Assembly: GCA_963662715.1 (NCBI GenBank)
Contig: OY759724.1
Location: 2,040,001 to 2,072,000 of the forward strand
Length of the DNA stretch: 32,000 bases
Reading direction: 5' to 3'
From: Candidatus Omnitrophota bacterium
GTDB taxonomy: Bacteria; Omnitrophota; Gorgyraeia; Zapsychrales; JANLHA01
Shown piece after piece: positions 1 through 27,929 of this stretch. Each line of letters opens with the position of its first letter. The first letter of the stretch is position 1. A program made the position numbers and the translations under genes. The notes under the pieces were generated by a model. That model was given only the letters and a program-made list of their open reading frames with translations, was not told where the DNA came from and ran no database searches.

Positions 1-1197
1 TGGATCAGAGATATCAAAGGATCCTACCCGCATATTTATTGTGTCGGAGGCGGCTGTCATATAACCTTGAATCCTCATGACGGCCTGGAGACATCTCTGG
101 ACGCCCTTTGCATCGGAGAGGGGGAATGGCCGATCCTGGAACTTGTGGAGCAACTGGATCAGGGACGCATTCCGCAGGGAATAAGTAATTTATGGATTAA
201 GCGGGACGGACAGGTTGAAAAGAACCGTATCCGTCCGTTTTTGGAAAACATTGATGATCTGCCGTTCCCGGACCGGGAGATGTGGCATCCCTGGACATTG
301 GATCTGGACAGCCGGCCGGCGGTTCTTTTAGGCCGCGGATGTCCTTTTCAATGCACGTACTGTTCAAATCATGCCTTAAAGAAACTGGCATCAGGCACGT
401 ATGTCCGCTGCCGTTCCGCGGAGAATATTATTGCCGAACTCAAAGAGATCACGTCCCGGCAGCCTTCCGCCAGGGAGGTTTACTTTGAGGTGGAAACATT
501 TAATGTGAATCTCCCCTGGGCTATCGGTTTGTGTGAAAGATTGGCAGAATTTAACCGGAAAAGGGACATCCCTCTGGAGTTTGGCGTGAACATCCGCGTC
601 ACGCCTAATACGGATTTTGCTTCGCTTTTTGCGGCCATGAAGAAGAGCCGGTTTTCTTTTATCAATATCGGGGTCGAATCCGGCAGCGAACGGATCCGCC
701 GGGATATTATGAAGCGGCGGTATTCCAACGACGATATTATGAAGACCGTTGCCCTGGCCCGGGAGCATGGATTAAAAGTGCATTTTTTGAACATGATCGG
801 TCTCCCGACGGAAACAGAGGAGGATATCCGTCAGACGATTGCTGTTAACCGTGCCTGCCAGCCGGATATGTGGCCGTCCCATTCGATTTTTTTCCCGTAC
901 CCCGGGACAGAAATTCACCGTATGTGCCGGGAAATGAATTTATTGCCCCCCCAGATGGATGTCGAACGGGAACGCTCCCGGGCCGTGCTTAATCTGGACG
1001 GGTTGTCAAAAAGCAGAATTATGCATTATTTTGTCTGGTTTGACTATTATGTTTATAAAGGTCACCGCCCTTTATGGAAACTGCTGGCCCGGGTTTTTGT
1101 GGCCCGGCTGCATTGCTCGTACCGGTTGATGCGTATTTACCGGGGGCTGACCGAACGGGGCGTTCTTAAAAAATTGAAGGAGTTTCTCAAAAAATAA
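1..1197 (+). CDS. B12-binding-domain radical SAM enzyme (class B), 5'-truncated by the window edge
   Basis: Frame 1 is open from nt 1: WIRDIKGSYPHIYCVGGGCHITLNPHD precedes the TTG at 67 used by the ORF track, so the gene starts upstream of the window. CxxxCxxC cluster motif GRGCPFQCTYCSN (Cys codons 340-363). GVESGSERIR motif. The GGGCH..GEGE segment is typical of the cobalamin-binding N-domain. Confidence 0.85.
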   Translation, partial: WIRDIKGSYPHIYCVGGGCHITLNPHDGLETSLDALCIGEGEWPILELVEQLDQGRIPQGISNLWIKRDGQVEKNRIRPFLENIDDLPFPDREMWHPWTLDLDSRPAVLLGRGCPFQCTYCSNHALKKLASGTYVRCRSAENIIAELKEITSRQPSAREVYFEVETFNVNLPWAIGLCERLAEFNRKRDIPLEFGVNIRVTPNTDFASLFAAMKKSRFSFINIGVESGSERIRRDIMKRRYSNDDIMKTVALAREHGLKVHFLNMIGLPTETEEDIRQTIAVNRACQPDMWPSHSIFFPYPGTEIHRMCREMNLLPPQMDVERERSRAVLNLDGLSKSRIMHYFVWFDYYVYKGHRPLWKLLARVFVARLHCSYRLMRIYRGLTERGVLKKLKEFLKK

Positions 1198-1199
1198 AC

Positions 1200-2363
1200 A
1201 TGGCGAACGAAACCAAAAGAAAAGTTATCCCTTACGGACGGCAAAGCATTTCCCAGGAAGATATCAAGGCTGTTGTAAATGTTTTGCGTTCGGACTGGAT
1301 CACTCAAGGGCCCAGGATTCAGGAATTTGAAAAGGCGCTGTGCCGTTATACGGGAGCGAAATACGCGGTTGCCGTGGCCAACGGAACCGCGGGCCTGCAC
1401 CTGGCCTGTTTAGCGGCCGGAGTCGGCCCCGGAGATGAAGTCATCACATCCCCGATGACTTTTTTGGCTTCTGCCAATTGTGTTTTATATTGCGGAGGGA
1501 CCCCGGTCTTTGCCGACATCCAGCCGGATACGGGGAATATCGACCCGGAGGAGATTGCTAAGAAAATCAGCGCAAGAACCAAAGCCGTTATTCCTGTACA
1601 TTTTGCCGGCCATCCCTGTGATTTGAAAGAGATCCGTCGCATGGCCAGGAAGCACAAACTGGTTGTGATTGAAGATGCCTGCCATGCGTTAGGGGCTGAA
1701 TACCAGGGGAAAAAGATCGGCGCCTGCCAGTATTCTGATATGACGGTCTTCAGCTTTCATCCGGTTAAGAGTATTACGACCGGGGAGGGAGGAGCCGTCT
1801 TAACGAATAATAAAAGGATGTATGAAAAACTTGTTCTATTGAGAAACCACGGGATGACGCGGGACAAGGCCAAAATTAAAAAGGGACAGGGGGACTGGTA
1901 TTGCGAAATGCAGGCGTTGGGATTTAATTACCGTATCACCGATATCCAGTGCGCCTTGGGTATAGGGCAGTTAAGCAGACTGGACCGGTTCCTGGCCAAA
2001 AGACGGCAGCTGGTTCAAGTCTATCAGAAGGCTTTGGCGGATACTTCGCACATTCAGCGTCCGGTTGAGCTCCCCGGGGGGCGTTCGGCCTGGCATATTT
2101 ATCCCGTTTTTATTCACCCCTCAAGCCTGAAGCCTGTTGTTTTCAAGAAATTAAAGGCGGCCGGAATCAGACCGCAGGTTCATTATATGCCGGTTTACTG
2201 GCATCCTTATTATTATTCCCTGGGGTACAGAAAAGGGTTATGCCCCGGGGCAGAAGAATTTTATCGCGCGGAAATCACGGTCCCGTTGTATCCTTCGTTG
2301 AAATTACGTGAGGTTCATTATGTTGTCCGGACGTTAAAAGATATCTTGGAAGAGGTGAGGTAA
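1200..2363 (+). CDS. pseC: DegT/DnrJ/EryC1-family PLP aminotransferase, PseC-like (UDP-4-amino-4,6-dideoxy-N-acetyl-beta-L-altrosamine transaminase)
   Basis: N-terminus IPYGRQSISQEDIKAVVNVLRSDWITQGPRIQEFE matches the PseC signature. PLP-lysine motif SFHPVKSITTGEGG. Sits in a pseC / cytidylyltransferase / pseG ... pseI gene order. Confidence 0.85.
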   Translation: MANETKRKVIPYGRQSISQEDIKAVVNVLRSDWITQGPRIQEFEKALCRYTGAKYAVAVANGTAGLHLACLAAGVGPGDEVITSPMTFLASANCVLYCGGTPVFADIQPDTGNIDPEEIAKKISARTKAVIPVHFAGHPCDLKEIRRMARKHKLVVIEDACHALGAEYQGKKIGACQYSDMTVFSFHPVKSITTGEGGAVLTNNKRMYEKLVLLRNHGMTRDKAKIKKGQGDWYCEMQALGFNYRITDIQCALGIGQLSRLDRFLAKRRQLVQVYQKALADTSHIQRPVELPGGRSAWHIYPVFIHPSSLKPVVFKKLKAAGIRPQVHYMPVYWHPYYYSLGYRKGLCPGAEEFYRAEITVPLYPSLKLREVHYVVRTLKDILEEVR

Positions 2364-3094
2364 TGAAAACAGTGGCTGTCATACAAGCCCGGATGAATTC
2401 TACCCGTCTGCCCGGGAAAGTCCTTATGGATATTGCCGGGCAGCCGATGCTGGCACATGTGGTCAGACGGTTGACACATAGCAGCCGGATTAATGAAATT
2501 GTCGTCGCTTTAACAACAGATACCGCTGATGATGTTGTGGAAATGTTTTGCCGGGACAGTAAAATCAAAATTTTTCGGGGGGAAAGTCATGACGTGTTGG
2601 ACCGTTATTATCAAACAGCCCGATCTTTTCAGGCGGATTGTATCGTCCGGATCACCTCAGACTGCCCTTTGATCGATCCTCAGGTCGTGGATCACGTTAT
2701 CCGTGAATTCAAAGATACTTCCGCTGCTCTGGACGGGGCCACGAATTGTCTTCGCCGGACATATCCTCGCGGACTCGACTGTGAAGTGTTCGGCTTTTCC
2801 GCCCTTGAGCGGTGCTGGAGACTGGCGGAGAAAGATTATTGCCGTGAGCATGTCACGATATATATGTATGAACATCCTGAGCTTTTTAAGATGAAAAATG
2901 TTGAATATAAGGAAGATTTGTCTTTTTACCGGTGGACCGTTGATGAAGAGCTTGATTTGAAATTGGTGCGGGAGATTTATCTGAGACTGAGATCGGCAAA
3001 GGAGATGTTTTTTATGCAGGATATTCTGGAGGTGTTTGAAAGAGACCCGGCCCTTAAACATATCAACGAACATGTCCTTCAGAAACACGTTTAG
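2363..3094 (+). CDS. SpsF/NeuA-family cytidylyltransferase (candidate CMP-nonulosonate synthetase)
   Basis: MKTVAVIQARMNSTRLPGKVL...RITSDCPLIDP is typical of CTP_transf_3 / SpsF-type cytidylyltransferases. TAATG overlap with pseC. Located between pseC and pseG. Confidence 0.7.
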   Translation: MKTVAVIQARMNSTRLPGKVLMDIAGQPMLAHVVRRLTHSSRINEIVVALTTDTADDVVEMFCRDSKIKIFRGESHDVLDRYYQTARSFQADCIVRITSDCPLIDPQVVDHVIREFKDTSAALDGATNCLRRTYPRGLDCEVFGFSALERCWRLAEKDYCREHVTIYMYEHPELFKMKNVEYKEDLSFYRWTVDEELDLKLVREIYLRLRSAKEMFFMQDILEVFERDPALKHINEHVLQKHV

Positions 3095-3106: not shown

Positions 3107-4120
3107 ATGTCAGAACAGGTTTTGATTTTAACAGAAGGAGGAAAAGACGTCGGCCTGGGGCATCTGTCCCGATGCTCCGCCTTGTACCAGGCTTTTGCGC
3201 AGAAGGGCGCTTCTCCGGTCCTGGTGGTTAACGGAGAAGAACATATCCTGGATTTTATCCCTGGTTTGCAATGCCATATTCAGCCCTGGCTGGACAAAGA
3301 TGTCCTTTTGTCTTTATTGCAAGAAACGCCGGATATCGCGGTGGTCGATTCTTATTTAGCCGGGGAAGATCTTTATCAGATCATTGCGCGTAAGTGCAAG
3401 GTTGCCGTTTATATGGATGATAATAAACGTATGGATTATCCTCCGGGAATCGTGGTGAACAGCGCCGGAAACGCTGAGGCGTTGGGATATCCTCCCTGTC
3501 ACGATAAGGTTTATTTGTTAACAGAAAAATATGCGTTGTTAAGAGCCCCGTTTTGGCAAGACTCCCCCAGGAGAGCCGGACAGGCGCTTGAAACAATTTT
3601 GTTGACAATGGGTGGGAGTGACATGCGCAATCTGACTCCAAAGATTTTACAGGTTTTAACGCAGGAGTACCCGCAGGCGGAAAAGATTGTCATCGTGGGG
3701 CATGGGTTCAGCCGGCAGGAAACGATGTCATCATGGATCGATGATAGAACACAGATTGTACAATCTCCAGATGCGGAAGCTCTGAGAGCCTTGATGCTTC
3801 AGGCGGATATGGCTGTTTCCGCTGGCGGGCAGACATTATACGAACTGACACGGTGCGGGGTTCCGGCTTGTGTCGTATGTGTCGCGGATAATCAGGCGTC
3901 GCATATCTCCTGGTTTCAAGAGAAAGGTCTGGTAAAGGATTGCGGACGGTATGATGCTTCTAACCTATCAGCGCGTGTGCGGCAGGCCTTAGGAGAATTG
4001 GCTGATGAGGAGCTTCGCAGCCGGATTTCGGCGGCAGGCAGAAAGATTGTCGACGGCCGGGGCGCGTTACGCCTCGTGGACGAAATATTAAAATATTTGC
4101 CTCTGCAACAGCATTATTGA
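3107..4120 (+). CDS. pseG: PseG-like UDP-2,4-diacetamido-2,4,6-trideoxy-beta-L-altropyranose hydrolase (GT28-like fold)
   Basis: N-terminal GGKDVGLGHLSRCSALYQAF and C-terminal ADMAVSAGGQTLYELTRCGVPACVVCVADNQ match PseG family motifs. Pse gene context. Confidence 0.75.
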   Translation: MSEQVLILTEGGKDVGLGHLSRCSALYQAFAQKGASPVLVVNGEEHILDFIPGLQCHIQPWLDKDVLLSLLQETPDIAVVDSYLAGEDLYQIIARKCKVAVYMDDNKRMDYPPGIVVNSAGNAEALGYPPCHDKVYLLTEKYALLRAPFWQDSPRRAGQALETILLTMGGSDMRNLTPKILQVLTQEYPQAEKIVIVGHGFSRQETMSSWIDDRTQIVQSPDAEALRALMLQADMAVSAGGQTLYELTRCGVPACVVCVADNQASHISWFQEKGLVKDCGRYDASNLSARVRQALGELADEELRSRISAAGRKIVDGRGALRLVDEILKYLPLQQHY

Positions 4121-4149: not shown

Positions 4150-4791
4150 ATGGAAAAAGTCAAGATAGCTATATATGGCGCTTCCTTAGGGGGTGAGACC
4201 GTTAAAGAATGTCTTGCTCTGGAAGATACCTGTGATATTGCTTGTTTCCTGGATGATGACCCCCGGAAGTCGGGAATGGAATTTTGCGGTTTACCTATCC
4301 GGTCCTCGGATGATCTGGAGAAATTAAGCGCAGAGGGCGTGTCCCGGGTTGCCCTGGCCGTTGCCAATGCCTCGAAGAGACTGGAACTCCGGGGCCGGCT
4401 CATGGCATGCCGCCTGGAGCCGATGAATGTGATACATCCGCGCACTTATATAGCCCCGTCTGTAAAGATCGGGAAAGGAAACTATATTAAAGCCGGCGCG
4501 GTTATTGAGACAAATAGCACTGTTGGTGATTGCTGTATTATCGATAACGGTGTCATTGTCGCTCATGACAATGTCATTGAAGACGCCTGTCATCTTGCAC
4601 CGGGTGTCGTTTTGGGAAGCAGTATTGTGGTCGGATCAGGGAGCATTATCGGAATAGGGGCCAGTATATCAACAAAGATCCGTATCGGAAAAAATGTGAT
4701 TGTCAGCGTGGGAACCAGTGTCACCAGAGACGTTCCGGATAACAGTATTGTAGAAGGCGTTCCGGGAAAAATCATTGGAAGACGAAAATAA
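4150..4791 (+). CDS. NeuD/PglD-family left-handed beta-helix sugar N-/O-acyltransferase
   Basis: N-terminal Rossmann-like IAIYGASLGGETV..FLDDDP. C-terminal hexapeptide repeats (IGKGNYIKAGAVIETNSTVGDCCIIDNGVIVAHDNVIEDACHLAPGVVLGSSIVVGSGSIIGIGASI). Ending VEGVPGKIIG is typical of the NeuD/PglD family. Confidence 0.8.
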   Translation: MEKVKIAIYGASLGGETVKECLALEDTCDIACFLDDDPRKSGMEFCGLPIRSSDDLEKLSAEGVSRVALAVANASKRLELRGRLMACRLEPMNVIHPRTYIAPSVKIGKGNYIKAGAVIETNSTVGDCCIIDNGVIVAHDNVIEDACHLAPGVVLGSSIVVGSGSIIGIGASISTKIRIGKNVIVSVGTSVTRDVPDNSIVEGVPGKIIGRRK

Positions 4792-4847
4792 AAAATGCTT
4801 CCTGTCCCCGGGCCGCGGAAGCGGGTGAGGGCTTACAGTTAGGGTGT

Positions 4848-5765
4848 ATGATGAAAACAGAAGTGTTGTATGAAAAGATGTTGTTAATAAGGCTCTTCGA
4901 GGAGCAGGTGGGTCTTTTGTTTACCCGGGGAGATTTATTCGGGACGACACACGCCTGTATCGGGCAGGAAGCCGTTGCTGTGGGTGTTACGCAGGGGCTC
5001 CATCAAGATGATATCATCACGAGCAATCACCGCGGCCACGGCCATTATATTGCTTTCACCGGAGATGTCGAAGGCCTGCTGGCGGAACTGATGGGCAAAA
5101 AGACCGGAGTTTGCGCCGGTCGCAGCGGCAGCCAGCATTTGTGTTATAAAAATTTCTTTTCCAACGGAATAACCGGAGGCATGATCCCGGTGGCAACGGG
5201 CATGGCTTTGGCGGAAAAGAAAAAGAAGAGCGGAAAAATCGTTGTTTGTTTCTTGGGAGACGGTGCCTTGGGAGAAGGCCCGCTTTATGAGTCTTTGAAC
5301 ATGGCCTCTTTATGGGGGCTGCCGATTATTTTTGTTGTTGAGAATAACAGTTATGCCATGAGCACGCATATTTCCGAGGCCGTGGCCGGAAAGATTTTAG
5401 AGCGCGGGAAAGCCTTCTCGATCAAAACAGAAGAGTTTTATACTCAGGATGCCGGGAAAATTTTCTCCGGGTTTGAAAAAATTATCAGCCATGTCCGGAC
5501 ACAGGTTCAGCCGTATTTTTGTCTTTTTCATACATACCGGTTTTGCGGGCACAGCAAGAGCGATGATTGCTGTTACCGCGATAAGAATGAAGAACTGGAA
5601 TGGCGTAAGAAAGATCCGCTGCTTATTTTAGAACAGCGTTTAGAGCCGCAAACCGTAAAAAGGATTCAGGAAAAATGCCGCCGTCAAATTGAGGAAGCTT
5701 TAAGCCAGGCGGCGGAAGCTCCCTTTCCTGACCCGGCTTGCTTGTCTCAGGGATTATGGGGTTGA
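4848..5765 (+). CDS. ThDP-dependent 2-oxoacid dehydrogenase E1 component, alpha subunit
   Basis: ThDP motif GDGALGEGPLYESLNMASLWGLPIIFVVENNSYAM (GDG-x-NN). YRFCGHSKSD motif. N-terminal MLLIRLFEE..GTTHACIGQEA is typical of PdhA/AcoA. Confidence 0.85.
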   Translation: MMKTEVLYEKMLLIRLFEEQVGLLFTRGDLFGTTHACIGQEAVAVGVTQGLHQDDIITSNHRGHGHYIAFTGDVEGLLAELMGKKTGVCAGRSGSQHLCYKNFFSNGITGGMIPVATGMALAEKKKKSGKIVVCFLGDGALGEGPLYESLNMASLWGLPIIFVVENNSYAMSTHISEAVAGKILERGKAFSIKTEEFYTQDAGKIFSGFEKIISHVRTQVQPYFCLFHTYRFCGHSKSDDCCYRDKNEELEWRKKDPLLILEQRLEPQTVKRIQEKCRRQIEEALSQAAEAPFPDPACLSQGLWG

Positions 5766-5774
5766 GGAAGATGT

Positions 5775-6788
5775 ATGAAAACATTTGCGCAATCGATTAA
5801 TACCGCGTTGGAGGAAAAATTAGCTGAAGATCCCCGGGTGCTTTTGCTGGGCGAAGATCTCCGGGATCCTTACGGCGGTGCCTTTAAAATCACAAAAGGA
5901 CTGTCTTCCCGGTATCCGGACCGGGTTCTCAACACGCCGATGAGCGAGTTTTCATTAGCCGGAGTGGCTGCGGGGCTGGCCATACGGGGTTTGCGGCCGG
6001 TCTTGGAGATCATGTTCGGTGATTTTATGACATTTTGCGCGGATCAGCTGATCAACCATGCCGTGAAGTTTCGCTGGATGTACAACGGACAAGTGGATGT
6101 CCCGCTTGTGATCCGGACTCCCATGGGAGGGGGACGCGGTTACGGTCCGACCCACAGCCAGTCTCTGGAGAAGATTTTTATGGGCATTCCGGGGCTGAAG
6201 ATCATTGCTGCGAGTCATTTTCATGATGCCGGGACATTGTTAAAAGACGCTATTGATGACGACAATCCGGTTTTATTTATAGAACATAAACTTTTATATC
6301 CCCGTAAGATCGGCCAGCCGGTGGACGGTTACATTTCGGACTTTGCCGTTAAATTTTCTGACGGCAGGTATAAAACATTGAGATTATCTAACACGGACTT
6401 TGACGATCCTCAGCTTACGGTGCTTGTTTATGGCGGAATGTTGCCTTGGGTGACAGAGGCTGTTAATGAACTGCTCGTTGAAGAGGAGGTCGGAGCGGAG
6501 ATTGTTGTCCCGAGTTATATTAACCAATCTTTCATCCCGGAGATGATGGAATCCGTTAAGACAACAGGGAGGCTGGTGATTGTGGAAGAAGGGACTCTGT
6601 CGTTCGGCTGGGGGGCAGAAATGGCCGCCAGGATTGTGACACATGAAAGCATAGGGTCCTTGAAGGCGCCTGTCAGGCGGGTGGCCGCGAAAGATCTGCC
6701 TTTGGCGAATTCACGTGTTTTAGAAGAAGCCACATTGCCGCAGGTCAGGGATATCAAAAAGGCTGTTCAGGAGGTCTTAGCGTCATGA
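5775..6788 (+). CDS. 2-oxoacid dehydrogenase E1 component, beta subunit (transketolase-like Pyr + C domains)
   Basis: LLGEDLRDPYGGAFKITKGL...NTPMSEFSLAGVAAGLAIRGLRPVLEIMFGDF...GPTHSQSLE are classic PdhB/AcoB motifs. Lies 9 nt after the alpha subunit. Confidence 0.85.
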   Translation: MKTFAQSINTALEEKLAEDPRVLLLGEDLRDPYGGAFKITKGLSSRYPDRVLNTPMSEFSLAGVAAGLAIRGLRPVLEIMFGDFMTFCADQLINHAVKFRWMYNGQVDVPLVIRTPMGGGRGYGPTHSQSLEKIFMGIPGLKIIAASHFHDAGTLLKDAIDDDNPVLFIEHKLLYPRKIGQPVDGYISDFAVKFSDGRYKTLRLSNTDFDDPQLTVLVYGGMLPWVTEAVNELLVEEEVGAEIVVPSYINQSFIPEMMESVKTTGRLVIVEEGTLSFGWGAEMAARIVTHESIGSLKAPVRRVAAKDLPLANSRVLEEATLPQVRDIKKAVQEVLAS

Positions 6789-7222
6789 TACACGATATCC
6801 TTGTGCCGCAGTTGGGCGTTAATGATGAGTTCGTCACCATTGTTGAGTGGCGTGTTAACGACGGGGACAAAGTTGAGGTTGGGACGCCGTTATGCATCAT
6901 TGAGACAACGAAGGCGGTCGTAGACCTGTTAGCTGAAAATCCCGGGGTTATCGTCAGGATACGCTGTGAAAAGGAGCGGGTAGCCATAAAAGATCTTTTG
7001 GGATACATCGGCGATTCTTGGGAGGAGATCCAGCGCCTTATCCCGGAGAAACAGGCGACCGGAAAAAAGTCTGTGGGCGGCGAAGCCGATATTAAAGCCA
7101 CGCAGAAAGCCCGGGCCCTGGCTGAATCCCTGGGAGTGGATATCGGTCTGATTCTTAAGAAAGGGATCATCCGCGAAAAGGATGTGCAGGAATTTTATGC
7201 TTCCCGGCAAAAGGAATTTTAA
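6785..7222 (+). CDS. Stand-alone lipoyl-attachment domain + peripheral-subunit (E1/E3)-binding domain protein; E2 lacking its catalytic acyltransferase domain
   Basis: Lipoyl domain ILVPQLGVNDEFVTIVEWRVNDGDKVEVGTPLCIIETTKAVVDL (putative lipoyl-Lys in ETTKA). Linker. PSBD-like ATQKARALAESLGVDIGLILKKGIIREKDVQEFY. Only 145 aa, so there is no room for a 2-oxoacid_dh catalytic domain. ATGA overlap with E1 beta. Confidence 0.75.
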   Translation: MIHDILVPQLGVNDEFVTIVEWRVNDGDKVEVGTPLCIIETTKAVVDLLAENPGVIVRIRCEKERVAIKDLLGYIGDSWEEIQRLIPEKQATGKKSVGGEADIKATQKARALAESLGVDIGLILKKGIIREKDVQEFYASRQKEF

Positions 7223-7223
7223 G

Positions 7224-8279
7224 GTGAAAAGGACGAACGAGACAACCGGAAAAAGATTTTTTCACGAGGATAATTCGGTCTTTATTATCGCGGAGGTCTC
7301 TGCTAATCATGGGCAGGATTTTAAGCGGGCCGTCCAAATGATCAAGACGGCCAAAAAGTGCGGCGCGGATGCCGTGAAATTTCAGGCGTACACTCCTGAT
7401 ACGATGACGATGGACGTCAACACCCGTTATTTTCAGGTCCGTCATGCTCAATGGAGCGGACAGTCTTTGTATCAGCTGTATCAAAAGGCGTATACGCCTT
7501 TTGCATGGTTTAAGAAATTGAAAAAAGTGGCTGATGATATCGGTATTTTGTTTTTTGCCACGGCGTTTGATAAAACGGCCGTTGATTTGCTGGAAGAAAT
7601 CCGGGTGCCGGTACACAAGATTGCATCGTTTGAACTTAACGACATCCCTTTGATCCGGTACATGGCCAGGACGAAGAAGCCGCTGATATTATCCACGGGG
7701 ATGGCAACGCTGGCTGAGATTCAGGCGGCCGTTGATGCCGCCTGTCAAAACGGAACCCGTGATATATCTTTACTAAAATGTGTCAGTGATTACCCGGCTT
7801 CCCCGGAAGAGATGAATTTAGCGACCATCCCGGATATGAAAAAAAGATTTCCTGCCGTTATCGGCCTTTCGGACCATTCTTTGGGCATAGGGGTGTCTGT
7901 GGCCGGAGTATCGTTAGGGGCGAAGATTATTGAAAAGCATTTTACCCTTTCAAGAAAGCACAGGACGGCAGACAACTTTTTTTCCCTGGAGCCGGACGAG
8001 TTAAAGGATCTGGTGGATAATATACGGGTGGTAGAAAAGGCTGTGGGGCAGATTCATTACGGATTGACCAAAAAGGAAAAGGCGAGCCGAATTTACCGGC
8101 GTTCGTTGTTTGCGGTTCAGGATATTCGGAAAGGGGAGAAGCTGACCGAGCACAATGTGAGGTCGATCAGGCCTGCTTACGGTCTGGACCCCGAGGCTAT
8201 CGACGAGGTGCTGGACAAAACGGCCAGCAGGCATATCCGGAAAGGGGTTCCTTTAAGATGGGACATGATTGAAACATGA
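7224..8279 (+). CDS. pseI: Pseudaminic acid synthase (NeuB family, with C-terminal SAF domain)
   Basis: FIIAEVSANHGQDF...GADAVKFQAYT...AQWSGQSLYQLYQKAYTPFAWF...HKIASFELNDIPLI...GLSDHSLG...IIEKHFTL, then a SAF-like RRSLFAVQDIRKGEKLTEHNVRSIRP. Start is ambiguous: in-frame GTG at 7224 (right after the upstream stop, AAAGGAA upstream) versus the track ATG at 7182, which overlaps the upstream gene by 41 nt. Confidence 0.85.
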   Translation: MKRTNETTGKRFFHEDNSVFIIAEVSANHGQDFKRAVQMIKTAKKCGADAVKFQAYTPDTMTMDVNTRYFQVRHAQWSGQSLYQLYQKAYTPFAWFKKLKKVADDIGILFFATAFDKTAVDLLEEIRVPVHKIASFELNDIPLIRYMARTKKPLILSTGMATLAEIQAAVDAACQNGTRDISLLKCVSDYPASPEEMNLATIPDMKKRFPAVIGLSDHSLGIGVSVAGVSLGAKIIEKHFTLSRKHRTADNFFSLEPDELKDLVDNIRVVEKAVGQIHYGLTKKEKASRIYRRSLFAVQDIRKGEKLTEHNVRSIRPAYGLDPEAIDEVLDKTASRHIRKGVPLRWDMIET

Positions 8280-9241
8280 TTTCACTGAAAAATAAACATC
8301 AGAATCAGCGTGCTCTTGTCATTTTCGGAGGGCCTTCTATTGTCGCGAACCGGTATCCTCTGCAGAGCATTGACAAAAGCCGGTATACGGTCTTCCTGGA
8401 ATCAAAGGCTTTAACGCCGTATTTCTTGAAATCAGGCCTGGTCCCGGATTATTATTTAATGTTTTTCCTTGAGAAATGCAAGTCGAATGCGTTCCAACAC
8501 GTGGTTTTCCAGTCGTTCCTGGCCGACATAAAATTGGATGACCTGCTCCGGGAACAATTCCTGGCAGAGTATCACTTTATGAAAGATCATTTTGACATGT
8601 TCTTTGAGCCTTTCCGGCCGCATAAAGGCCCGCATAAGAAATACCGCTATAGACCCGATGTGTTCCTGAAAAACAGTCCTTTGGATCTGCTGGCAAATTT
8701 TCCCGGGGTGGCAGGGCTGTCTATAGAAAGTAATTTCCAGGACTACGCCGGAAGTTTTTCTTATCAGAATCCGGTCCATAAATTTCATGTCAGGAAAGCG
8801 GAAAAGCAGTTTGATCTTGATGATTATTTTCATGTTGATGACGAGGGCGACATCCCGTCTCTTAAAGATTACAGTTTCTTAAACTCGGCGGCGATAGCCT
8901 TGTTCCCCATCCTGAAGTATCTGGGATTCGACAGTGTTTTTTTTCTGGGGATGGATATGTCCATGCTGGGGAGCATGGAGTTTGCCGCCTGCTATACTTT
9001 TAAATCCATGAAGCATTATGAAAAATTTTTCAAAAAGGCGCAACGGGTTTTCAATGCTTCGTTCAGGGAGAATAAGAGAAAATTCATGCGTCCGCCTTAT
9101 GACTTTGAGGCGGTAGAGCAAATTCTCTCTTACCGGGGAATGACATTTCTCAATATCTATGAACCATTTGAATATGCGATGCCTGTGCCGGGTATTCGCA
9201 GTATCTCATTTAAGGAATTTCTTAATGGAACAGTCCAATAA
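8276..9241 (+). CDS. Maf/DUF115 (MptE-like) or GT42-like putative nonulosonic-acid transferase
   Basis: N-terminal ALVIFGGPSI resembles the GxGPS(L/I) motif of Maf and Cst-II proteins. GLVPDYY. Later NSAAIALFPILKYLGFDSVFFLGMDMS resembles the S-G-x...ALG...I.L.G.D block. Lies immediately downstream of pseI with an ATGA overlap. Confidence 0.5.
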   Translation: MISLKNKHQNQRALVIFGGPSIVANRYPLQSIDKSRYTVFLESKALTPYFLKSGLVPDYYLMFFLEKCKSNAFQHVVFQSFLADIKLDDLLREQFLAEYHFMKDHFDMFFEPFRPHKGPHKKYRYRPDVFLKNSPLDLLANFPGVAGLSIESNFQDYAGSFSYQNPVHKFHVRKAEKQFDLDDYFHVDDEGDIPSLKDYSFLNSAAIALFPILKYLGFDSVFFLGMDMSMLGSMEFAACYTFKSMKHYEKFFKKAQRVFNASFRENKRKFMRPPYDFEAVEQILSYRGMTFLNIYEPFEYAMPVPGIRSISFKEFLNGTVQ

Positions 9242-9908
9242 TCATTCGGTTGGCGTTTTTTCTTTCGCAAGGGTGCAAAGCGAACGATGTTCGCAGAAAA
9301 TGATCCGCCCCTTTGGCGACACGACATTAACTGATATCGTTCTGAAGAAATTGAGGGAAATCGGGCCGGACACCTTTTTCGCCGGCTACGAAAAGGTGTT
9401 CGCCGATAAATGTCAGGAGGCCGGGGTCTCTTTTGTCCGCCGGAGTGAGCACTCTGTTCATATCGATGGTCCTATTACTGAAATCCTCTCATTTCTGAAA
9501 GACCTCCCGTATGATTACTTTCTGATCATCAATGCCTGTCTGCCCTTTCTGCCGGTCCGGACCATTAAGGATTTTCTGCAGTACTGTCAGCAGGATTTTC
9601 GTCCCGTCTTTGCTGTTATAAAAAGGCATAATTTTTATTTTGATCATAAACAGCAGCCGCTTAATTTCAATTTATCTTTAAAAACGATCAACACAAAAAC
9701 CGTGACCCCGGTGTTTGAATTTGCTCACGCGTTATATTTTTTTAAAAAAGACTATTTTTTTGAAACGGGACGCTACTGGGACTGGCAGGAAGTGCGCCTG
9801 TTTGAACTGCAGAGCAAATTGGAATTGTTCGACATTGATACGGAGGAAGATTTTTTGATAGCAGAGGGAATGAGGAGAACTTATGAAAGTCGTATTCTTG
9901 GTTCATAG
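9225..9908 (+). CDS. Second, divergent cytidylyltransferase-like protein (NeuA/CTP_transf_3-like)
   Basis: VGVFSFARVQSERCSQKMIRPFGDTTL fits the A-R-x-x-S-x-R-x-x-x-K...L nucleotide-binding pattern. ...YFLIINACLPFL. Start taken at in-frame ATG 9225, since the track's 9159 start would overlap the upstream gene by 83 nt. Confidence 0.5.
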   Translation: MEQSNNHSVGVFSFARVQSERCSQKMIRPFGDTTLTDIVLKKLREIGPDTFFAGYEKVFADKCQEAGVSFVRRSEHSVHIDGPITEILSFLKDLPYDYFLIINACLPFLPVRTIKDFLQYCQQDFRPVFAVIKRHNFYFDHKQQPLNFNLSLKTINTKTVTPVFEFAHALYFFKKDYFFETGRYWDWQEVRLFELQSKLELFDIDTEEDFLIAEGMRRTYESRILGS

Positions 9909-11235
9909 AACGAATTACTACCGGTATTTGACTCCGGTTATCCAGGAAGCCCTGAACCGTGGCCATGAGGTGGAATGCTGGCATGATTACAGCGCCCCTC
10001 GTCATGGCCTGAAAGGGTATAGTTTCCCTTTCTTGGAGCATATGCCGGTCTTTTCCGGAACCCGGCAGCCGACGCCTAAAGCCTTTGCCGGCATCGCCGA
10101 ACTGGAGCCTTTGCTGTATTCCCGGCAGATCGATGTTGTTTGTTCCATTTATCCGCTGAAGTTGTCTTTGCCGCATGCCTCTTTAGACAGTTTTTCTTTT
10201 ACTTGGGTGACGCTGATGACCGGCCCGGACAGTTTTTTCCAGATCCCCAAATTTGAATTATTAAAGAAGCGGGAAAACAAAGAACTGTTCATGGCTTACA
10301 GTGATTTCTTTGTTGAAAAAGGCCGGGTATTTCTGGAAAAATATTATCCCTCGCATAAAAATTATCTTGATAGTGATTATACAAAAGTTTTTGTTCCGGG
10401 CAACCCGGAGTTTGATGCCTTTCGTGATATTCAGGAAGAACATGTCCGTGATAAATACGGCCTGCCTTCGGGGAAAAAGATTTTGCTGTATCTGCCGTTC
10501 CCTTATTGCAACCGCAATAGACATTCTGCCTGGGAGAGGGCTTTTTGCGGACGGTTAACAGATACGGCGGTCAGTCCGGGAGGTTTGCTGGTCCATGATA
10601 AAAGAAGAGCTCCTCTGAAACGTTTTATGACGGATGTCAGTCATTTCCTTCGGATTTGCCGTGATCCTTTGAGCCTGGACTATCTGCTCAGGAAGATTGA
10701 TGAAGCGGGAGTCTTTAAATCGATTAGGAAATTTTGCGACAGGAACGATCTTTATCTCGTTGTCAAACCCCGGTTGAAATTCCCGGTTGCCGAATATGTT
10801 AAGGAAACAGCCGATTTGGTTGTTTGGGATAATGAACAGGAAGAGAATCCTCCTATATTGAAAGAACTGTTGTCCGTGACGAAAATCTGCGCCATGTATT
10901 TCAGCTTTGCGTCTCTGGCGTCTATATATCATCAGGTGTTTTGTCTCAACATCAATCTGCCTGACGAATTCTTCGTGAATGACGCCCAGCGGTTTTGGTT
11001 TTCCAATACTTTGGGGGGGAGTTTTAATTATCCCGGAGTTATAGAGACGTGGGAAATGGTCGATGTTATACAAAAATTGCCGCAGACGCCCTTAGAAACA
11101 TTTGATGTCGATGCCGGACAGCATAGGGAATTTGTCAGGAAATTTGTTACCCATGATGACACCCTTTCCAGCCGGCGGGTATGGAATATTGTCGAATCAG
11201 AAGTATCCCAAAAAAAGGATATTGTGGCCGTATGA
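9883..11235 (+). CDS. Uncharacterised protein, possibly GT-B/TagF-like transferase fold
   Basis: Long ORF with coding-like composition and translational overlap on both sides. Weak TagF-like layout: VFVPGNPEFDAF, KKILLYLPFP, LYLVVKPRLK, ICAMYFSFASLASIYHQVFCLNI. No diagnostic catalytic motif recognised. Confidence 0.35.
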   Translation: MKVVFLVHRTNYYRYLTPVIQEALNRGHEVECWHDYSAPRHGLKGYSFPFLEHMPVFSGTRQPTPKAFAGIAELEPLLYSRQIDVVCSIYPLKLSLPHASLDSFSFTWVTLMTGPDSFFQIPKFELLKKRENKELFMAYSDFFVEKGRVFLEKYYPSHKNYLDSDYTKVFVPGNPEFDAFRDIQEEHVRDKYGLPSGKKILLYLPFPYCNRNRHSAWERAFCGRLTDTAVSPGGLLVHDKRRAPLKRFMTDVSHFLRICRDPLSLDYLLRKIDEAGVFKSIRKFCDRNDLYLVVKPRLKFPVAEYVKETADLVVWDNEQEENPPILKELLSVTKICAMYFSFASLASIYHQVFCLNINLPDEFFVNDAQRFWFSNTLGGSFNYPGVIETWEMVDVIQKLPQTPLETFDVDAGQHREFVRKFVTHDDTLSSRRVWNIVESEVSQKKDIVAV

Positions 11236-13154: not shown

Positions 13155-13204
13155 CGGCATTGGGAACGATTTTTTGATTGGCCTTATCAAGCAAGGAGGG
13201 GCAC

Positions 13205-23994: not shown

Positions 23995-24053
23995 TAATCT
24001 TTGGCGGGGAGGGTGTGGGAAGTCAACATAAAGGACCTTATAAGGAGTTTCTG

Positions 24054-26581: not shown

Positions 26582-26605
26582 AAATTTTTGTTTAAAGGTG
26601 AGATC

Positions 26606-27889: not shown

Positions 27890-27929
27890 ATTTTTTGGGT
27901 AAGGATTTTTGATTGTTGAGAAAGGACAG

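What the first reader, a model, noticed from the sequence alone, without database searches (positions are those of the whole stretch)
4150..7222. A four-gene acyltransferase + E1 alpha/beta + lipoyl-carrier module sits in the pseH slot of a pseudaminic acid operon
The gene order is pseC, cytidylyltransferase, pseG, [NeuD/PglD-type LbH acyltransferase, ThDP E1 alpha, E1 beta, lipoyl+PSBD mini-E2], pseI. No GNAT-type PseH (the acetyl-CoA-dependent 4-N-acetyltransferase of the canonical pathway) is present in the window. The insert lies where that step is normally encoded. An E1 heterodimer normally decarboxylates a 2-oxoacid and reductively acylates a lipoyl-lysine. Here the lipoyl carrier has no E2 catalytic domain to pass the acyl group to CoA. 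My inference is that the adjacent LbH acyltransferase takes the acyl group, either directly from S-acyl-dihydrolipoyl-protein or through a small CoA pool. It would then N-acylate the 4-amino sugar. This would give a nonulosonic acid whose N-acyl group comes straight from a 2-oxoacid (pyruvate, hydroxypyruvate, 2-oxobutyrate and so on). N-acyl diversity on Pse/Leg sugars is well known, but I do not know of a described lipoyl-dependent route. Competing hypothesis with precedent: PDH-E1-like AviB1/AviB2 in avilamycin biosynthesis attach a two-carbon branch to a ketosugar. The E1 pair here could likewise make a C-branched sugar from one of the 4-keto intermediates of this locus.
Basis: partly seen in the sequence, partly recalled or inferred. 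Interest (0 to 1): 0.82.

Follow-up and report, generated by a model that had tools for sequence, protein, structure and literature searches.

The report
Lipoyl-driven acylation module in pseudaminic operon
Four adjacent genes in a pseudaminic-acid sugar operon encode a pyruvate-dehydrogenase-like enzyme pair, a small lipoic-acid carrier and a sugar acyltransferase; about a hundred natural gene fusions in other bacteria indicate that they work together to decorate the sugar by an apparently undescribed route that probably bypasses coenzyme A.

Summary
Four ORFs lie between pseC, a cytidylyltransferase and a pseG-like gene on one side and pseI on the other:
- 4150-4791: NeuD/PglD-type LbH acyltransferase
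- 4848-5765: ThDP E1 alpha
- 5775-6788: E1 beta
- 6785-7222: 145-aa lipoyl carrier with a degenerate PSBD-like tail and no E2 catalytic domain

The window has no GNAT, PseB, E3 or lipoate ligase.

- 98 of the 120 closest LbH homologues are long enough to be natural lipoyl-LbH fusions.
- In 17 of 18 non-redundant metagenomic loci with enough flank, the fusion sits beside E1 alpha/beta.
- Some loci insert a lipoate-protein ligase between the E1 genes.
- Most long loci also carry NeuB, PseB-like and DegT genes.
- This E1 clade is separate from E1s that pair with canonical E2s. It keeps both histidines needed for reductive acylation.
- Elsewhere the same clade pairs with lipoyl domains fused to KAS III, to a methyltransferase or to an E2-NRPS.

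I read the module as an E2-like swinging-arm system in which a sugar N-acyltransferase replaces the CoA-acyltransferase core. Direct lipoyl-to-amine transfer, the acceptor (the PseC product) and the acyl group are inferred, not shown. I found no description of it in the searchable literature.

The parts
1200..2363 (+). PseC aminotransferase. It makes the only sugar amine encoded in the window, which is the presumed acyl acceptor.
   Evidence: TIGR03588 scores 523.8 bits against cutoff 423.5; PF01041.
2363..3094 (+). CTP_transf_3 cytidylyltransferase, the presumed CMP-nonulosonate synthetase. It is not a canonical PseF.
   Evidence: PF02348, E 2.9e-32; TIGR03584 PseF scores only 24 bits. The same gene precedes the PseG-like gene in L002, L006 and L050.
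3107..4120 (+). PseG-like UDP-sugar hydrolase.
   Evidence: TIGR03590 scores 132.6 bits, below cutoff 153.55. It is 36-40% identical to the homologue beside the module in L002, L006, L058 and L059.
4150..4791 (+). NeuD/PglD/PerB-type LbH sugar N-acyltransferase. The catalytic His139 is encoded at 4564-4566. The Asn that is strictly conserved in Class I enzymes is Asp132 here.
   Evidence: TIGR03570 scores 177.2 bits against cutoff 160.8. The best PDB match is PerB 4ea7, E 1.7e-28, with His141 aligned to His139. 98 of the 120 nearest homologues are at least 330 aa, the length of lipoyl fusions.
4848..5765 (+). ThDP-dependent E1 alpha subunit (305 aa). His235 is encoded at 5550-5552.
   Evidence: PF00676, E 2.5e-56. 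TIGR03182 scores 286 bits, below cutoff 394. G137/G139 and N166/N167 of the ThDP motif and H235 are conserved in 119-120 of 120 homologues.
5775..6788 (+). E1 beta subunit (337 aa). Glu58 is the cofactor-activating residue. His127, encoded at 6153-6155, corresponds to H128beta of G. stearothermophilus.
   Evidence: PF02779 + PF02780. H127 and E58 are each conserved in 68 of 68 clade members.
6785..7222 (+). 145-aa lipoyl carrier ('mini-E2'). The lipoyl domain is encoded at 6785-7012, with Lys43 at 6911-6913 in the motif E-T-T-K-A. A flexible linker follows. The PSBD-like helical tail is encoded at 7088-7195. There is no catalytic domain.
   Evidence: PF00364, E 1.2e-12. K43 aligns to the lipoyl-lysine of human E3BP and E2 and is invariant in 78 sequences. 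AlphaFold mean pLDDT is 84.9; the top Foldseek matches are full-length E2 models and then lipoyl domains. The PSBD HMM scores 14.1 bits. The start codon overlaps the E1 beta stop by 4 nt.
7182..8279 (+). PseI pseudaminic acid synthase.
   Evidence: TIGR03586 scores 453 bits against cutoff 340.25; PF03102 + PF08666.

Best explanation
The four genes encode a CoA-independent, lipoate-dependent sugar N-acylation system. It is built like a 2-oxoacid dehydrogenase complex in which a NeuD/PglD-type LbH sugar N-acyltransferase has replaced the E2 catalytic core.

Proposed steps:
1. The E1 alpha2beta2 enzyme uses ThDP to decarboxylate a 2-oxoacid, or to cleave a ketol donor. It then reductively acylates the dithiolane of lipoyl-Lys43 on the 145-aa carrier. 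The carrier's PSBD-like tail docks it to the complex.
2. The swinging arm delivers the S-acyl-dihydrolipoyl thioester to the LbH trimer. His139 acts as the base, and the acyl group passes to the 4-amino group of UDP-4-amino-4,6-dideoxy-beta-L-AltNAc made by PseC. This is the step that GNAT PseH performs in the canonical pathway.
3. The PseG-like hydrolase, PseI and the cytidylyltransferase complete a CMP-pseudaminic acid derivative that carries this acyl group on N7.
4. Dihydrolipoyl must be re-oxidised by an E3 or another oxidant encoded elsewhere.

Status of each claim:
- Shown by sequence: domain content, catalytic residues and gene linkage.
- Shown by comparative genomics: functional coupling of E1, the lipoyl domain and LbH.
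- Inferred: direct thioester-to-amine transfer, the acceptor and the acyl identity. The acyl may be something other than acetyl, such as glycolyl or another hydroxyacyl, but this is open.
For: 1. Rosetta-stone fusions. 98 of the 120 closest LbH homologues (44-66% identity) are at least 330 aa, and nearly all of them carry PF00364 N-terminal to PglD_N/Hexapep. In a library of 1.84 billion representatives, most of the best hits down to about E 1e-36 are 355-383 aa with the LbH at about residues 155-370. The fused segment includes the PSBD-like tail and is 48% identical to the window carrier over 140 aa.
2. Linkage. The fusion is adjacent to E1 alpha/beta in 20 of 21 metagenomic loci with at least 2.2 kb on both sides, which is 17 of 18 clusters after de-replication. 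The single exception is a partial LbH.
3. Split form. The window's arrangement, LbH-E1a-E1b-Lip-NeuB, recurs in L048 with 66/63/66/52/61% identity. L001 also carries the E1b-Lip part.
4. Lipoate ligase. An LplA-type ligase gene lies between E1 alpha and E1 beta in L002 and L049, and tblastn finds a homologue there in L056 and L063.
5. Carrier residues. The lipoyl Lys is invariant and the motif E-T-[TS]-K-A is conserved.
6. E1 competence for reductive acylation. Alpha H235 is present in 120 of 120 sequences. Beta H127 and beta E58 are each present in 68 of 68. The roles of these residues are described in PMC2663715.
7. Phylogeny. In an NJ tree the E1 clade with non-canonical lipoyl partners is separate from E1s followed by a canonical Lip-PSBD-PF00198 E2.
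8. Lipoyl arm as a general carrier. In the same clade the lipoyl domain is fused to KAS III (L005), to an E2cat-C-A-T-TE NRPS (L010) and to a SAM methyltransferase (L134).
9. Acceptor. The characterised Class I relatives compared in PMC9271549 (PglD, PerB, VioB, Pcryo_0637) acylate the C-4' amine of NDP-4-amino-6-deoxyhexoses. PseC is the only aminotransferase in the window, since the other DegT-family protein is RfbH-like. No GNAT is present.
10. Nonulosonic acid (NulO) context. Every long locus fetched by protein look-up has a NeuB within 10 kb. So do 7 of the 11 metagenomic loci with at least 5 kb on both sides.
11. Precedents. LpxA and LpxD are LbH enzymes that accept a carrier-protein-tethered thioester (names; mechanism is established knowledge). 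QncN/L/M and SclQ1-4 are E1 plus lipoyl systems that feed secondary metabolism.
Against: - No biochemical data exist for any member.
- tblastn finds no E3 (dihydrolipoamide dehydrogenase) in the window or in any clade locus. The same search finds one in 19 of the loci outside the clade, most of which carry a canonical E2. Turnover therefore depends on an unlinked oxidant.
- L006 has PseB, PseC, PseG-like, E1a, E1b and PseI but no lipoyl or LbH gene within 20 kb. L013 has an LbH partner with no detectable lipoyl domain.
- Some loci that carry the module also carry a PseH-like GNAT (L052, L053). Several carry a PIG-L de-N-acetylase (L048, L049, L050, and 5 of 11 long metagenomic loci). In those loci the LbH may acylate a different amine.
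- The LbH still passes the generic NeuD/PglB/VioB model, so acyl-CoA use cannot be excluded from sequence alone.
- PseB is not in the window, and I could not read the DNA upstream.
- By homology the E1 is closest to pyruvate dehydrogenase E1. The acyl could therefore simply be acetyl, which would make the module's purpose unclear.
Confidence: 0.6

Rival explanations
1. CoA relay. E1 and the lipoyl carrier generate an unusual acyl group. It passes first to CoA, through an unlinked E2 or transacylase or non-enzymatically. The LbH then works as an ordinary acyl-CoA-dependent Class I N-acyltransferase. On this view the fusion only keeps the donor-generating and donor-consuming parts close together.
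For: The LbH passes TIGR03570 and keeps the catalytic His of the CoA-dependent enzymes PerB, PglD and VioB. All characterised members of this class use acyl-CoA.
Against: No PF00198 domain or other candidate transacylase is present in the window or in the Lip-LbH loci. Fusing the lipoyl arm directly to the LbH copies the lipoyl-PSBD-catalytic core architecture of E2. The strictly conserved Class I Asn is replaced by Asp in 99% of the clade, which marks an altered active site.
Confidence: 0.15
2. Same machinery, different acceptor. The lipoyl-dependent LbH acylates an amine other than the PseC product at the PseH step. One candidate is the N-2 position (N5 of the nonulosonate) after de-N-acetylation. 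Another is an amino group on a different sugar of this large locus. An unlinked PseH would then do the canonical acetylation.
For: PIG-L de-N-acetylases accompany the module in L048, L049, L050, L006 and in 5 of 11 long metagenomic loci. PseH-like GNATs co-occur in L052, L053 and L006. I could not inspect the sequence upstream of the window.
Against: The window has no PIG-L and no GNAT. PseC is its only sugar aminotransferase. Characterised relatives of the LbH act on C-4' amines. The module sits between the pseG-like gene and pseI.
Confidence: 0.15
3. C-branching carboligase. The E1 pair transfers a two-carbon unit from pyruvate onto a 4-keto sugar intermediate, as proposed for AviB1/AviB2 and Pau11/Pau12. 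The lipoyl protein and the LbH would be unrelated to that step.
For: There is precedent for E1 alpha/beta-like pairs in sugar pathways (PMC4753412). L006 has the E1 pair in a Pse locus without a lipoyl or LbH gene.
Against: The E1 pair co-occurs almost always with a lipoyl domain. The lipoyl Lys is invariant. The beta His that is needed specifically for reductive acylation is conserved in 68 of 68 members. Lipoate ligase genes are embedded in related loci.
Confidence: 0.04

Closest known systems
2-oxoacid dehydrogenase complexes with heterotetrameric E1 (PDH, BCKDH, acetoin dehydrogenase AcoABC)
   Same: An alpha/beta ThDP E1 with the same catalytic residues. A lipoyl domain with the modified Lys at the hairpin. 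A flexible linker and a PSBD-like module. The gene order E1a-E1b-lipoyl protein.
   Different: There is no PF00198 E2 catalytic domain and no linked E3. The E1 subunits score below the NCBIfam PDH cutoffs. The Asp of the DKA lipoyl motif is Thr or Ser. The acyl acceptor is proposed to be a sugar amine instead of CoA. The E1 clade is separate in the NJ tree.
QncN/QncL/QncM and SclQ1-4 (glycolicacyl unit for nonribosomal peptides)
   Same: An E1-like ThDP enzyme plus a lipoyl arm, recruited outside central metabolism to make an acyl building block. SclQ2 (305 aa) and SclQ3 (338 aa) match the sizes of the window E1 alpha and beta (PMC6335953). A clade member, L010, is fused in line with an NRPS.
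   Different: Those systems keep an E2 catalytic domain and hand the acyl group to an ACP. Here there is neither an E2 catalytic domain nor an ACP, and the acceptor enzyme is an LbH sugar N-acyltransferase. I could not compare the sequences directly with QncN or SclQ2.
Class I LbH sugar N-acetyltransferases (PglD, PerB, VioB, Pcryo_0637; LegH in legionaminic acid synthesis)
   Same: A PglD_N domain plus a left-handed beta-helix, the catalytic His, and action on C-4' amines of NDP-4-amino-6-deoxyhexoses.
   Different: All of these use acetyl-CoA and stand alone. This clade is fused to, or linked with, a lipoyl carrier and E1. It has Asp in place of the strictly conserved Asn, plus a clade-specific Lys114.
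GNAT PseH of the canonical pseudaminic acid pathway
   Same: It occupies the same pathway step, 4-N-acylation between PseC and PseG, and a similar operon position.
   Different: It has an unrelated fold (GNAT rather than LbH). Its donor is acetyl-CoA, whereas here the donor is proposed to be an acyl-lipoyl carrier.
AviB1/AviB2 and Pau11/Pau12 (C-4 acetyl branching of octoses)
   Same: An E1 alpha/beta-like pair encoded in a deoxysugar pathway (PMC4753412).
   Different: Those are proposed carboligases and no lipoyl partner is described for them. Here the lipoyl carrier is near-obligatory and its lysine is invariant.
LpxA/LpxD
   Same: LbH acyltransferases that take the acyl group from a carrier-protein-tethered thioester. 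They appear among the PDB matches. The mechanism is established knowledge.
   Different: Their carrier is ACP with phosphopantetheine, not a lipoyl domain. They lack a PglD_N domain and act on different substrates.

Membership tests
Heterotetrameric ThDP-dependent 2-oxoacid dehydrogenase E1 | E1_dh alpha subunit plus a Transket_pyr/Transketolase_C beta subunit | tested here: met
   PF00676 at E 2.5e-56; PF02779 at 1.2e-33; PF02780 at 1.4e-15.
Heterotetrameric ThDP-dependent 2-oxoacid dehydrogenase E1 | The ThDP motif GDG...NN, the cofactor-activating beta Glu, and the two active-site His residues (alpha H271 and beta H128 in G. stearothermophilus numbering) | tested here: met
   G137/G139, N166/N167 and H235 in alpha; E58 and H127 in beta. 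They are conserved in 119-120 of 120 and 68 of 68 clade sequences. Roles are described in PMC2663715.
Pyruvate dehydrogenase E1 (NCBIfam equivalogs) | Score above the curated cutoff of TIGR03182 or TIGR03181 (alpha) and PRK09212 or PRK11892 (beta) | tested here: not met
   286.4 bits against cutoff 393.85; 171.8 against 411.35; 230.9 against 321; 211.8 against 454.
Canonical 2-oxoacid dehydrogenase complex | E2 with a PF00198 catalytic domain | tested here: not met
   The 145-aa protein has PF00364 only. No PF00198 is found anywhere in the window.
Canonical 2-oxoacid dehydrogenase complex | A linked E3 dihydrolipoamide dehydrogenase | tested here: not met
   tblastn with an Lpd sequence finds E3 in 19 loci outside the clade and in none of the clade loci or the window.
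Lipoyl domain | Biotin_lipoyl fold with the modifiable Lys at the hairpin tip | tested here: met
   PF00364 at E 1.2e-12. K43 aligns to the lipoyl-Lys of E3BP and E2. The residue is invariant in 78 sequences. AlphaFold pLDDT is about 95 for residues 1-76. Foldseek matches lipoyl domains.
Lipoyl domain | Canonical D-K-A motif, and actual lipoylation | tested here: inconclusive
   The motif is E-T-T-K-A, with Thr or Ser replacing the Asp across the clade. Lipoylation cannot be tested here. Lipoate ligase genes embedded in L002, L049, L056 and L063 argue for it.
Peripheral subunit-binding domain (PF02817) | A match to the E3_binding profile | tested here: inconclusive
   Pfam gives no hit for the window protein. 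A custom PSBD HMM scores 14.1 bits against a background maximum of 7.8. The L005 homologue hits PF02817 at 1e-5. The helix-loop-helix is predicted at pLDDT 75-86.
NeuD/PglB/VioB (Class I LbH sugar N-acetyltransferases) | PglD_N plus LbH, above the TIGR03570 cutoff, with the catalytic His | tested here: met
   177.2 bits against cutoff 160.8. His139 aligns to PerB His141 and is present in 100% of clade and outgroup sequences.
NeuD/PglB/VioB (Class I LbH sugar N-acetyltransferases) | The strictly conserved Asn seven residues before the catalytic His (PglD N118, VioB N128) | tested here: not met
   Window residue 132 is Asp. It is Asp in 99% of 138 clade sequences, and Asn in 91% of 46 generic relatives. 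The role of this Asn is described in PMC9271549.
NeuD/PglB/VioB (Class I LbH sugar N-acetyltransferases) | Acyl-CoA as the donor | not testable with these tools
   This needs enzymology. The genomic evidence points to an acyl-lipoyl donor.
Pseudaminic acid pathway (PseB, C, H, G, I, F) | PseC and PseI at equivalog level | tested here: met
   TIGR03588 at 523.8 bits against 423.5; TIGR03586 at 453 against 340.25.
Pseudaminic acid pathway (PseB, C, H, G, I, F) | PseG, PseF, PseB and a GNAT PseH | tested here: not met
   PseG scores 132.6 bits, below cutoff 153.55. PseF scores 24 bits. No PseB or GNAT is in the window.
AviB1/AviB2-type branching E1 | An E1 alpha/beta pair acting as a carboligase without a lipoyl acceptor | tested here: not met
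   A lipoyl carrier is translationally coupled to E1 beta in the window. It is near-universal in the clade.
QncN/L/M-type glycolicacyl system | An E2 catalytic domain and an ACP downstream of the lipoyl arm | tested here: not met
   The window has no PF00198 and no PP-binding protein. The family is described in PMC6335953.

The most novel reading that the evidence does not exclude
This may be a previously unrecognised class of lipoate-dependent enzyme system, widespread in uncultured and some cultured bacteria. In it the acyl group made by a dedicated E1 goes straight from S-acyl-dihydrolipoyl-lysine to a nucleotide-sugar amine, through an LbH transferase and with no CoA or ACP. On this reading the lipoyl arm acts more generally as an ACP-like carrier. 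It can be tailored while loaded (methyltransferase fusion) or feed KAS III and NRPS enzymes. In this locus it would produce a pseudaminic acid with a non-acetyl N7-acyl group derived from a 2-oxoacid or a ketose.
Probability: 0.45. Interest if true: 0.88.

Novelty: new variant of a known kind. Interest (0 to 1): 0.8.

Why it matters
- **Lipoate biochemistry.** To my knowledge, few lipoate-dependent systems are known: PDH, OGDH, BCKDH, acetoin dehydrogenase and the glycine cleavage system. The Qnc/Scl glycolyl system is a natural-product offshoot. An E2 analogue whose catalytic core is a sugar N-acyltransferase would add a new acceptor chemistry, thioester to amine on a nucleotide sugar.
- **Carrier versatility.** The lipoyl swinging arm would then be a modular carrier that evolution has plugged into LbH, KAS III, methyltransferase and NRPS partners.
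- **Glycobiology.** It would give a genetic marker for unusual N-acyl groups on pseudaminic- and legionaminic-type sugars. Those groups shape flagellin, S-layer, capsule and O-antigen antigenicity.
- **Annotation.** The roughly 370-aa fusion proteins are currently named 'NeuD/PglB/VioB family sugar acetyltransferase' or 'biotin/lipoyl attachment protein'. Those names miss the proposed function.
- **Testability.** The hypothesis can be tested directly, because a cultured carrier exists: Azospirillum fermentarium, assembly GCA_025961205.1.

Tried and rejected
- **Source genome.** I tried to fetch it to look upstream for pseB and pseH. Exact look-ups of the window's carrier and E1 alpha found no contig on record. 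The genome-contig scan did not include the source.
- **Word-index search with the 145-aa carrier.** It found only one non-self relative. The family became visible only through E1 alpha and the LbH.
- **Literature.** Ten full-text searches combined pseudaminic, legionaminic or nonulosonic acid with lipoyl, E1, pyruvate or acetoin dehydrogenase, NeuD, PglD or PerB. None returned a description of the module. One apparent hit uses 'lipoyl' to mean fatty acylation. The SugarBase preprint has nothing relevant.
- **Hydroxypyruvate lead.** AP_endonuc_2 genes next to the module in L049 and L052 might have been hydroxypyruvate isomerases. NCBIfam gives no such match, so I dropped the idea.
- **HRGHGH motif.** I asked whether this E1 alpha motif is clade-specific and could hint at the substrate. 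It is shared with E1s that pair with canonical E2s (L016, L018), so it is not informative.
- **Strict regex counts of E1 motifs** undercounted. I replaced them with alignment-based counts.
- **Pfam E3_binding on the window carrier** was negative. Only a custom HMM and the structure model support a PSBD-like tail.
- **Terminator and promoter scan.** It found no intergenic terminator. The promoter-like hits are not interpretable.
- **Structure of a natural fusion.** I did not predict one. The tool returns no coordinates and no multimers, so it could not test whether Lys43 docks at the LbH active site.

Full report
**1. Observation.**

The window is a single-strand, tightly packed glycan locus. 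The ORFs in and around the finding are listed below, with scores from Pfam and NCBIfam.

| Coordinates | Assignment | Key evidence |
|---|---|---|
| 1200-2363 | PseC | TIGR03588, 523.8 bits, cutoff 423.5 |
| 2363-3094 | CTP_transf_3 cytidylyltransferase | PF02348 |
| 3107-4120 | PseG-like | TIGR03590, 132.6 bits, below cutoff 153.55 |
| 4150-4791 | NeuD/PglD-type LbH acyltransferase | TIGR03570, 177.2 bits, cutoff 160.8 |
| 4848-5765 | E1 alpha | PF00676 |
| 5775-6788 | E1 beta | PF02779 + PF02780 |
| 6785-7222 | 145-aa lipoyl protein | PF00364 only |
| 7182-8279 | PseI | TIGR03586, 453 bits, cutoff 340.25 |

- The start of the carrier gene overlaps the E1 beta stop by 4 nt. No intergenic terminator-like site separates these genes.
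- None of the 30 + strand genes has a GNAT or a PF00198 domain.
- tblastn with PseB, PseH-like GNATs, PIG-L, LplA and E3 taken from related loci finds nothing in the window.
The one qualification is the 'PSBD'. Pfam does not detect it. Residues 102-137 align end to end with a PSBD HMM that I built from 18 canonical E2s, scoring 14.1 bits with a 3-residue deletion in the GTGxxGR loop. The best unrelated score among 4032 ORFs is 7.8 bits.
- AlphaFold (mean pLDDT 84.9) gives a lipoyl barrel at residues 1-76, a disordered linker at 89-100, and helices at 107-116 and 131-143. The top Foldseek matches are full-length E2 models aligned over 156-179 columns, followed by lipoyl domains.

**2. What the parts look like.**

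- **E1.** It keeps everything a reductively acylating E1 needs: the GDG...NN ThDP motif, the beta Glu58 that activates the cofactor, alpha His235 and beta His127. The two histidines correspond to H271alpha and H128beta of the Geobacillus stearothermophilus enzyme. H128beta is proposed there as the proton donor for acyl transfer to lipoate. These residues are conserved in 119-120 of 120 alpha homologues and 68 of 68 beta homologues of the clade.
- **E1 family placement.** Both subunits score well below the NCBIfam cutoffs for pyruvate dehydrogenase E1.
- **Carrier.** Lys43 aligns with the lipoyl-lysine of human E3BP and E2. It is invariant in the two alignments, of 78 and 76 sequences. The usual D-K-A motif is T/S-K-A throughout the family.
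- **LbH.** Its closest solved relative is PerB, the GDP-perosamine N-acetyltransferase (E 1.7e-28), with the catalytic His141 aligned to His139.
- **An altered LbH active site.** In Class I enzymes the only truly conserved catalytic features are this His and an Asn seven residues upstream (PMC9271549). In the window and in 99% of its clade that Asn is Asp132. A clade-specific Lys114 lies 18 residues before it, which is one beta-helix turn by inference.

**3. Related sequences decide the question.**

- **E1 alpha homologues.** The closest ones (49-63% identity) are about 300 aa and come from many phyla.
- **Fusions in the neighbourhoods.** In L002-L004 the lipoyl plus PSBD-like segment and the LbH form a single 365-aa protein. 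It lies directly upstream of E1 alpha, an LplA-type lipoate-protein ligase lies between E1 alpha and E1 beta, and NeuB follows.
- **How common the fusion is.** Searching with the window LbH shows that the fused form is the rule.
  - 98 of the 120 best hits are at least 330 aa, and nearly all of them carry PF00364.
  - In the library of 1.84 billion representatives, most of the best hits are 355-383 aa with the LbH at about residues 155-370.
- **Metagenome scan.** A scan with the fusion alignment returned 80 loci in 60 clusters.
  - In 20 of the 21 loci with at least 2.2 kb on both sides, E1 alpha/beta is adjacent. That is 17 of 18 clusters.
  - The only exception is a partial LbH without a lipoyl part.
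- **The split form is real.** The window's arrangement recurs with the same gene order in L048 (LbH 66%, E1a 63%, E1b 66%, Lip 52%, NeuB 61% identity). L001 also carries the E1b-Lip part. It is therefore not an assembly artefact.
- **Nonulosonic acid (NulO) context.** All long loci obtained by protein look-up carry NeuB within 10 kb, mostly with DegT/PseC, PseB-like and CTP_transf_3 genes. These loci are L002, L048-L053 and L059. L051 is from the cultured Azospirillum fermentarium.
- **Long metagenomic loci.** Of the 11 with at least 5 kb on both sides, 7 have NeuB, 8 have DegT and 8 have a PseB-like gene. More distant Chloroflexota loci (L009, L011, L014, L015) have the E1 pair and the fusion but no NeuB in view. 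The module is therefore an amino-sugar acylation device, used mostly but not only for nonulosonic acids.

**4. The E1 clade and its partners.**

An NJ tree of concatenated E1 alpha plus beta separates the window's clade from E1s that are followed by a canonical E2. Partner type follows identity to the window E1 alpha.

| Locus or group | E1 alpha identity to window | Partner of the E1 pair |
|---|---|---|
| Canonical group | at most 38% | Lip-PSBD-PF00198 E2 |
| L005 | within the clade (at least 44%) | Lip-PSBD-KAS III, 517 aa |
| L007 | within the clade | Lip-Hexapep, 518 aa |
| L010 | within the clade | Lip-PF00198-C-A-T-TE NRPS, 1889 aa |
| L134 | clade-type locus; not placed in the tree and identity not measured | E1a-E1b-LbH, then a Lip-SAM methyltransferase fusion, then DegT |

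The lipoyl arm in this clade therefore behaves like a general acyl carrier. E3 homologues are found in 19 loci outside the clade and in none of the clade loci.

**5. Mechanism.**

The architecture lipoyl domain, flexible linker, PSBD-like module, trimeric acyltransferase is that of an E2, with the CAT-like core exchanged for a PglD-type LbH.

- **Proposed course.** E1 loads an acyl group onto lipoyl-Lys43. The arm carries the thioester to the LbH. His139 deprotonates the sugar amine, which attacks the thioester.
- **Precedent for the donor type.** LbH enzymes that use a carrier-tethered thioester exist, namely LpxA and LpxD with acyl-ACP (established knowledge).
- **Acceptor.** It is most probably the PseC product. 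The characterised Class I relatives compared in PMC9271549 act on C-4' amines. PseC is the only aminotransferase in the window, since the other DegT-family protein is RfbH-like. No PseH is present either.
- **Shown versus inferred.** Domain content, catalytic residues, gene fusion and linkage are shown. Direct transfer, the acceptor and the acyl identity are inferred.
- **Acyl identity is open.**
  - Homology is closest to pyruvate dehydrogenase E1, which would give acetyl.
  - Three observations suggest a group that is not available as a CoA thioester: a four-gene route to an acetyl group seems hard to justify in organisms that make acetyl-CoA, a methyltransferase is fused to the carrier in L134, and the Qnc/Scl precedent produces glycolyl.
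  - This is a weak inference.

**6. Problems and exceptions.**

- There is no linked E3.
- L006 has the E1 pair between the PseG-like gene and PseI but no lipoyl or LbH gene in 20 kb. It has a formyltransferase-like gene, a PIG-L and a GNAT instead.
- L013 has an LbH partner with no detectable lipoyl domain.
- PseH-like GNATs co-occur with the module in L052 and L053. PIG-L de-N-acetylases are frequent. In some loci the LbH may therefore acylate N5 or another amine.
- I could not read the sequence upstream of the window, so an upstream pseB-pseH pair cannot be excluded.

**7. Comparison with known systems, and novelty.**

- **What it works like.** It resembles a 2-oxoacid dehydrogenase E1/E2 swinging-arm system and the Qnc/Scl glycolyl system.
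- **Why it is not a member of either.** It lacks PF00198, E3 and an ACP, and it scores below the PDH cutoffs.
- **The LbH.** It is a NeuD/PglD-family member by profile. It departs from the characterised Class I enzymes at the strictly conserved Asn and in being tied to a lipoyl donor.
- **The AviB1/B2 branching precedent** (PMC4753412) does not fit. It does not account for the near-obligatory lipoyl carrier or for the conserved beta His.
- **Literature.** Ten full-text searches found no description of an E1/lipoyl module in nonulosonic acid or amino-sugar N-acylation. The library does not cover subscription-only papers, so prior description cannot be ruled out.

**8. Verdict.**

- The feature is real.
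- It is a new variant of known machinery.
- Interest is high, because it would extend lipoate biochemistry and explain a source of nonulosonic acid N-acyl diversity.
- It is directly testable in a cultured organism.

Noticed in passing
L005:11929-13482 (uncultured Planctomycetota, CAZDHT010000042.1): A 517-aa protein that fuses a lipoyl domain, an E3_binding (PSBD) domain and a KAS III (FabH-like) condensing enzyme. It lies directly after an E1 alpha/beta pair of the same clade. This suggests a lipoyl-delivered starter unit for a fatty-acid or polyketide-type condensation.
   Followed up: partly
L010:11845-17514 (Candidatus Dormiibacterota, DATNLZ010000122.1): A 1889-aa protein with a lipoyl domain, a 2-oxoacid_dh catalytic domain and then C-A-T-TE NRPS domains. 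It follows E1 alpha/beta that are 44-46% identical to the window's. It resembles a single-polypeptide version of Qnc/Scl-like logic.
   Followed up: partly
L134:6050-10899 (JGI metagenome Ga0117909_1012013): Gene order E1a, E1b, a stand-alone LbH, then a 378-aa lipoyl domain fused to a class I SAM methyltransferase, then DegT. A B12-radical SAM and a SPASM radical SAM gene come before these. This hints that the acyl group is tailored while it sits on the lipoyl arm.
   Followed up: partly
L002:10909-11529 and L049:3921-4532; tblastn hits in L056 and L063: An LplA-B_cat lipoate-protein ligase gene lies between E1 alpha and E1 beta in loci of Saganbacteria-like and other uncultured bacteria. The window has no such gene.
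   Followed up: partly
L006:4270-14932 (uncultured Pirellulales, CAYUIE010000005.1): A Pse-type locus with the order PseB, PseC, AKR, SDR, cytidylyltransferase, PseG-like, E1a, E1b, formyltransferase-like, PIG-L, GNAT, PseI. It has no lipoyl or LbH gene in 20 kb. It is an unexplained exception to the E1-lipoyl-LbH linkage.
   Followed up: partly
window 67-1197, 21454-22533, 22567-23994, 26588-27889, 27909-29426: Five radical SAM genes in one glycan locus. Two have a detected B12-binding domain, a third resembles B12-type enzymes but is cut by the window start, one has a SPASM domain, and one has neither. Several methyltransferases lie alongside (11181-13154, 19793-20707, 20759-21415, 30465-31184). 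Together they point to heavy C- or O-methylation or other radical tailoring of the glycan. Related loci L002 and L134 also pair B12-radical SAM genes with the module.
   Followed up: no
window 16509-17237: A second, short NeuB-family ORF of 242 aa with no SAF domain. It scores 184 bits against TIGR03569, far below the cutoff. It sits among CDP-hexose genes and could be a truncated synthase or an aldolase-like enzyme for a different substrate. Two full NeuB genes also occur in L048 and L052.
   Followed up: no
window 13178-15068 and 24015-25736: A CDP-glucose pathway, as used for 3,6-dideoxyhexoses. It comprises glucose-1-P cytidylyltransferase (TIGR02623, 440 bits), CDP-glucose 4,6-dehydratase (TIGR02622, 495 bits) and an RfbH-like dehydrase with an N-terminal extension of about 110 aa (647 bits). 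The first two ORFs overlap by 113 nt as called, so the dehydratase probably starts later.
   Followed up: no
window 8276-9241, 9159-9908, 9883-11235: Three genes directly after pseI have little or no family assignment. The first is 321 aa with only a weak MptE-like (Maf-like) hit. The second is a second CTP_transf_3-like cytidylyltransferase. The third is 450 aa with only a weak Glyphos_transf hit. They may be the transferase and a second activation step for the modified sugar.
   Followed up: no
L002:13578-18328, L048:1258-5989, L053:14332-17623: A recurring cassette lies next to the module in several loci but not in the window. In L002 and L048 it comprises an Acetyltransf_9 protein, a glyoxalase-fold protein, an acyl-CoA ligase, an inositol-monophosphatase-like phosphatase and a PdxA-family dehydrogenase. 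L053 has a variant with a Gp_dh_N dehydrogenase. Its function is unknown.
   Followed up: no
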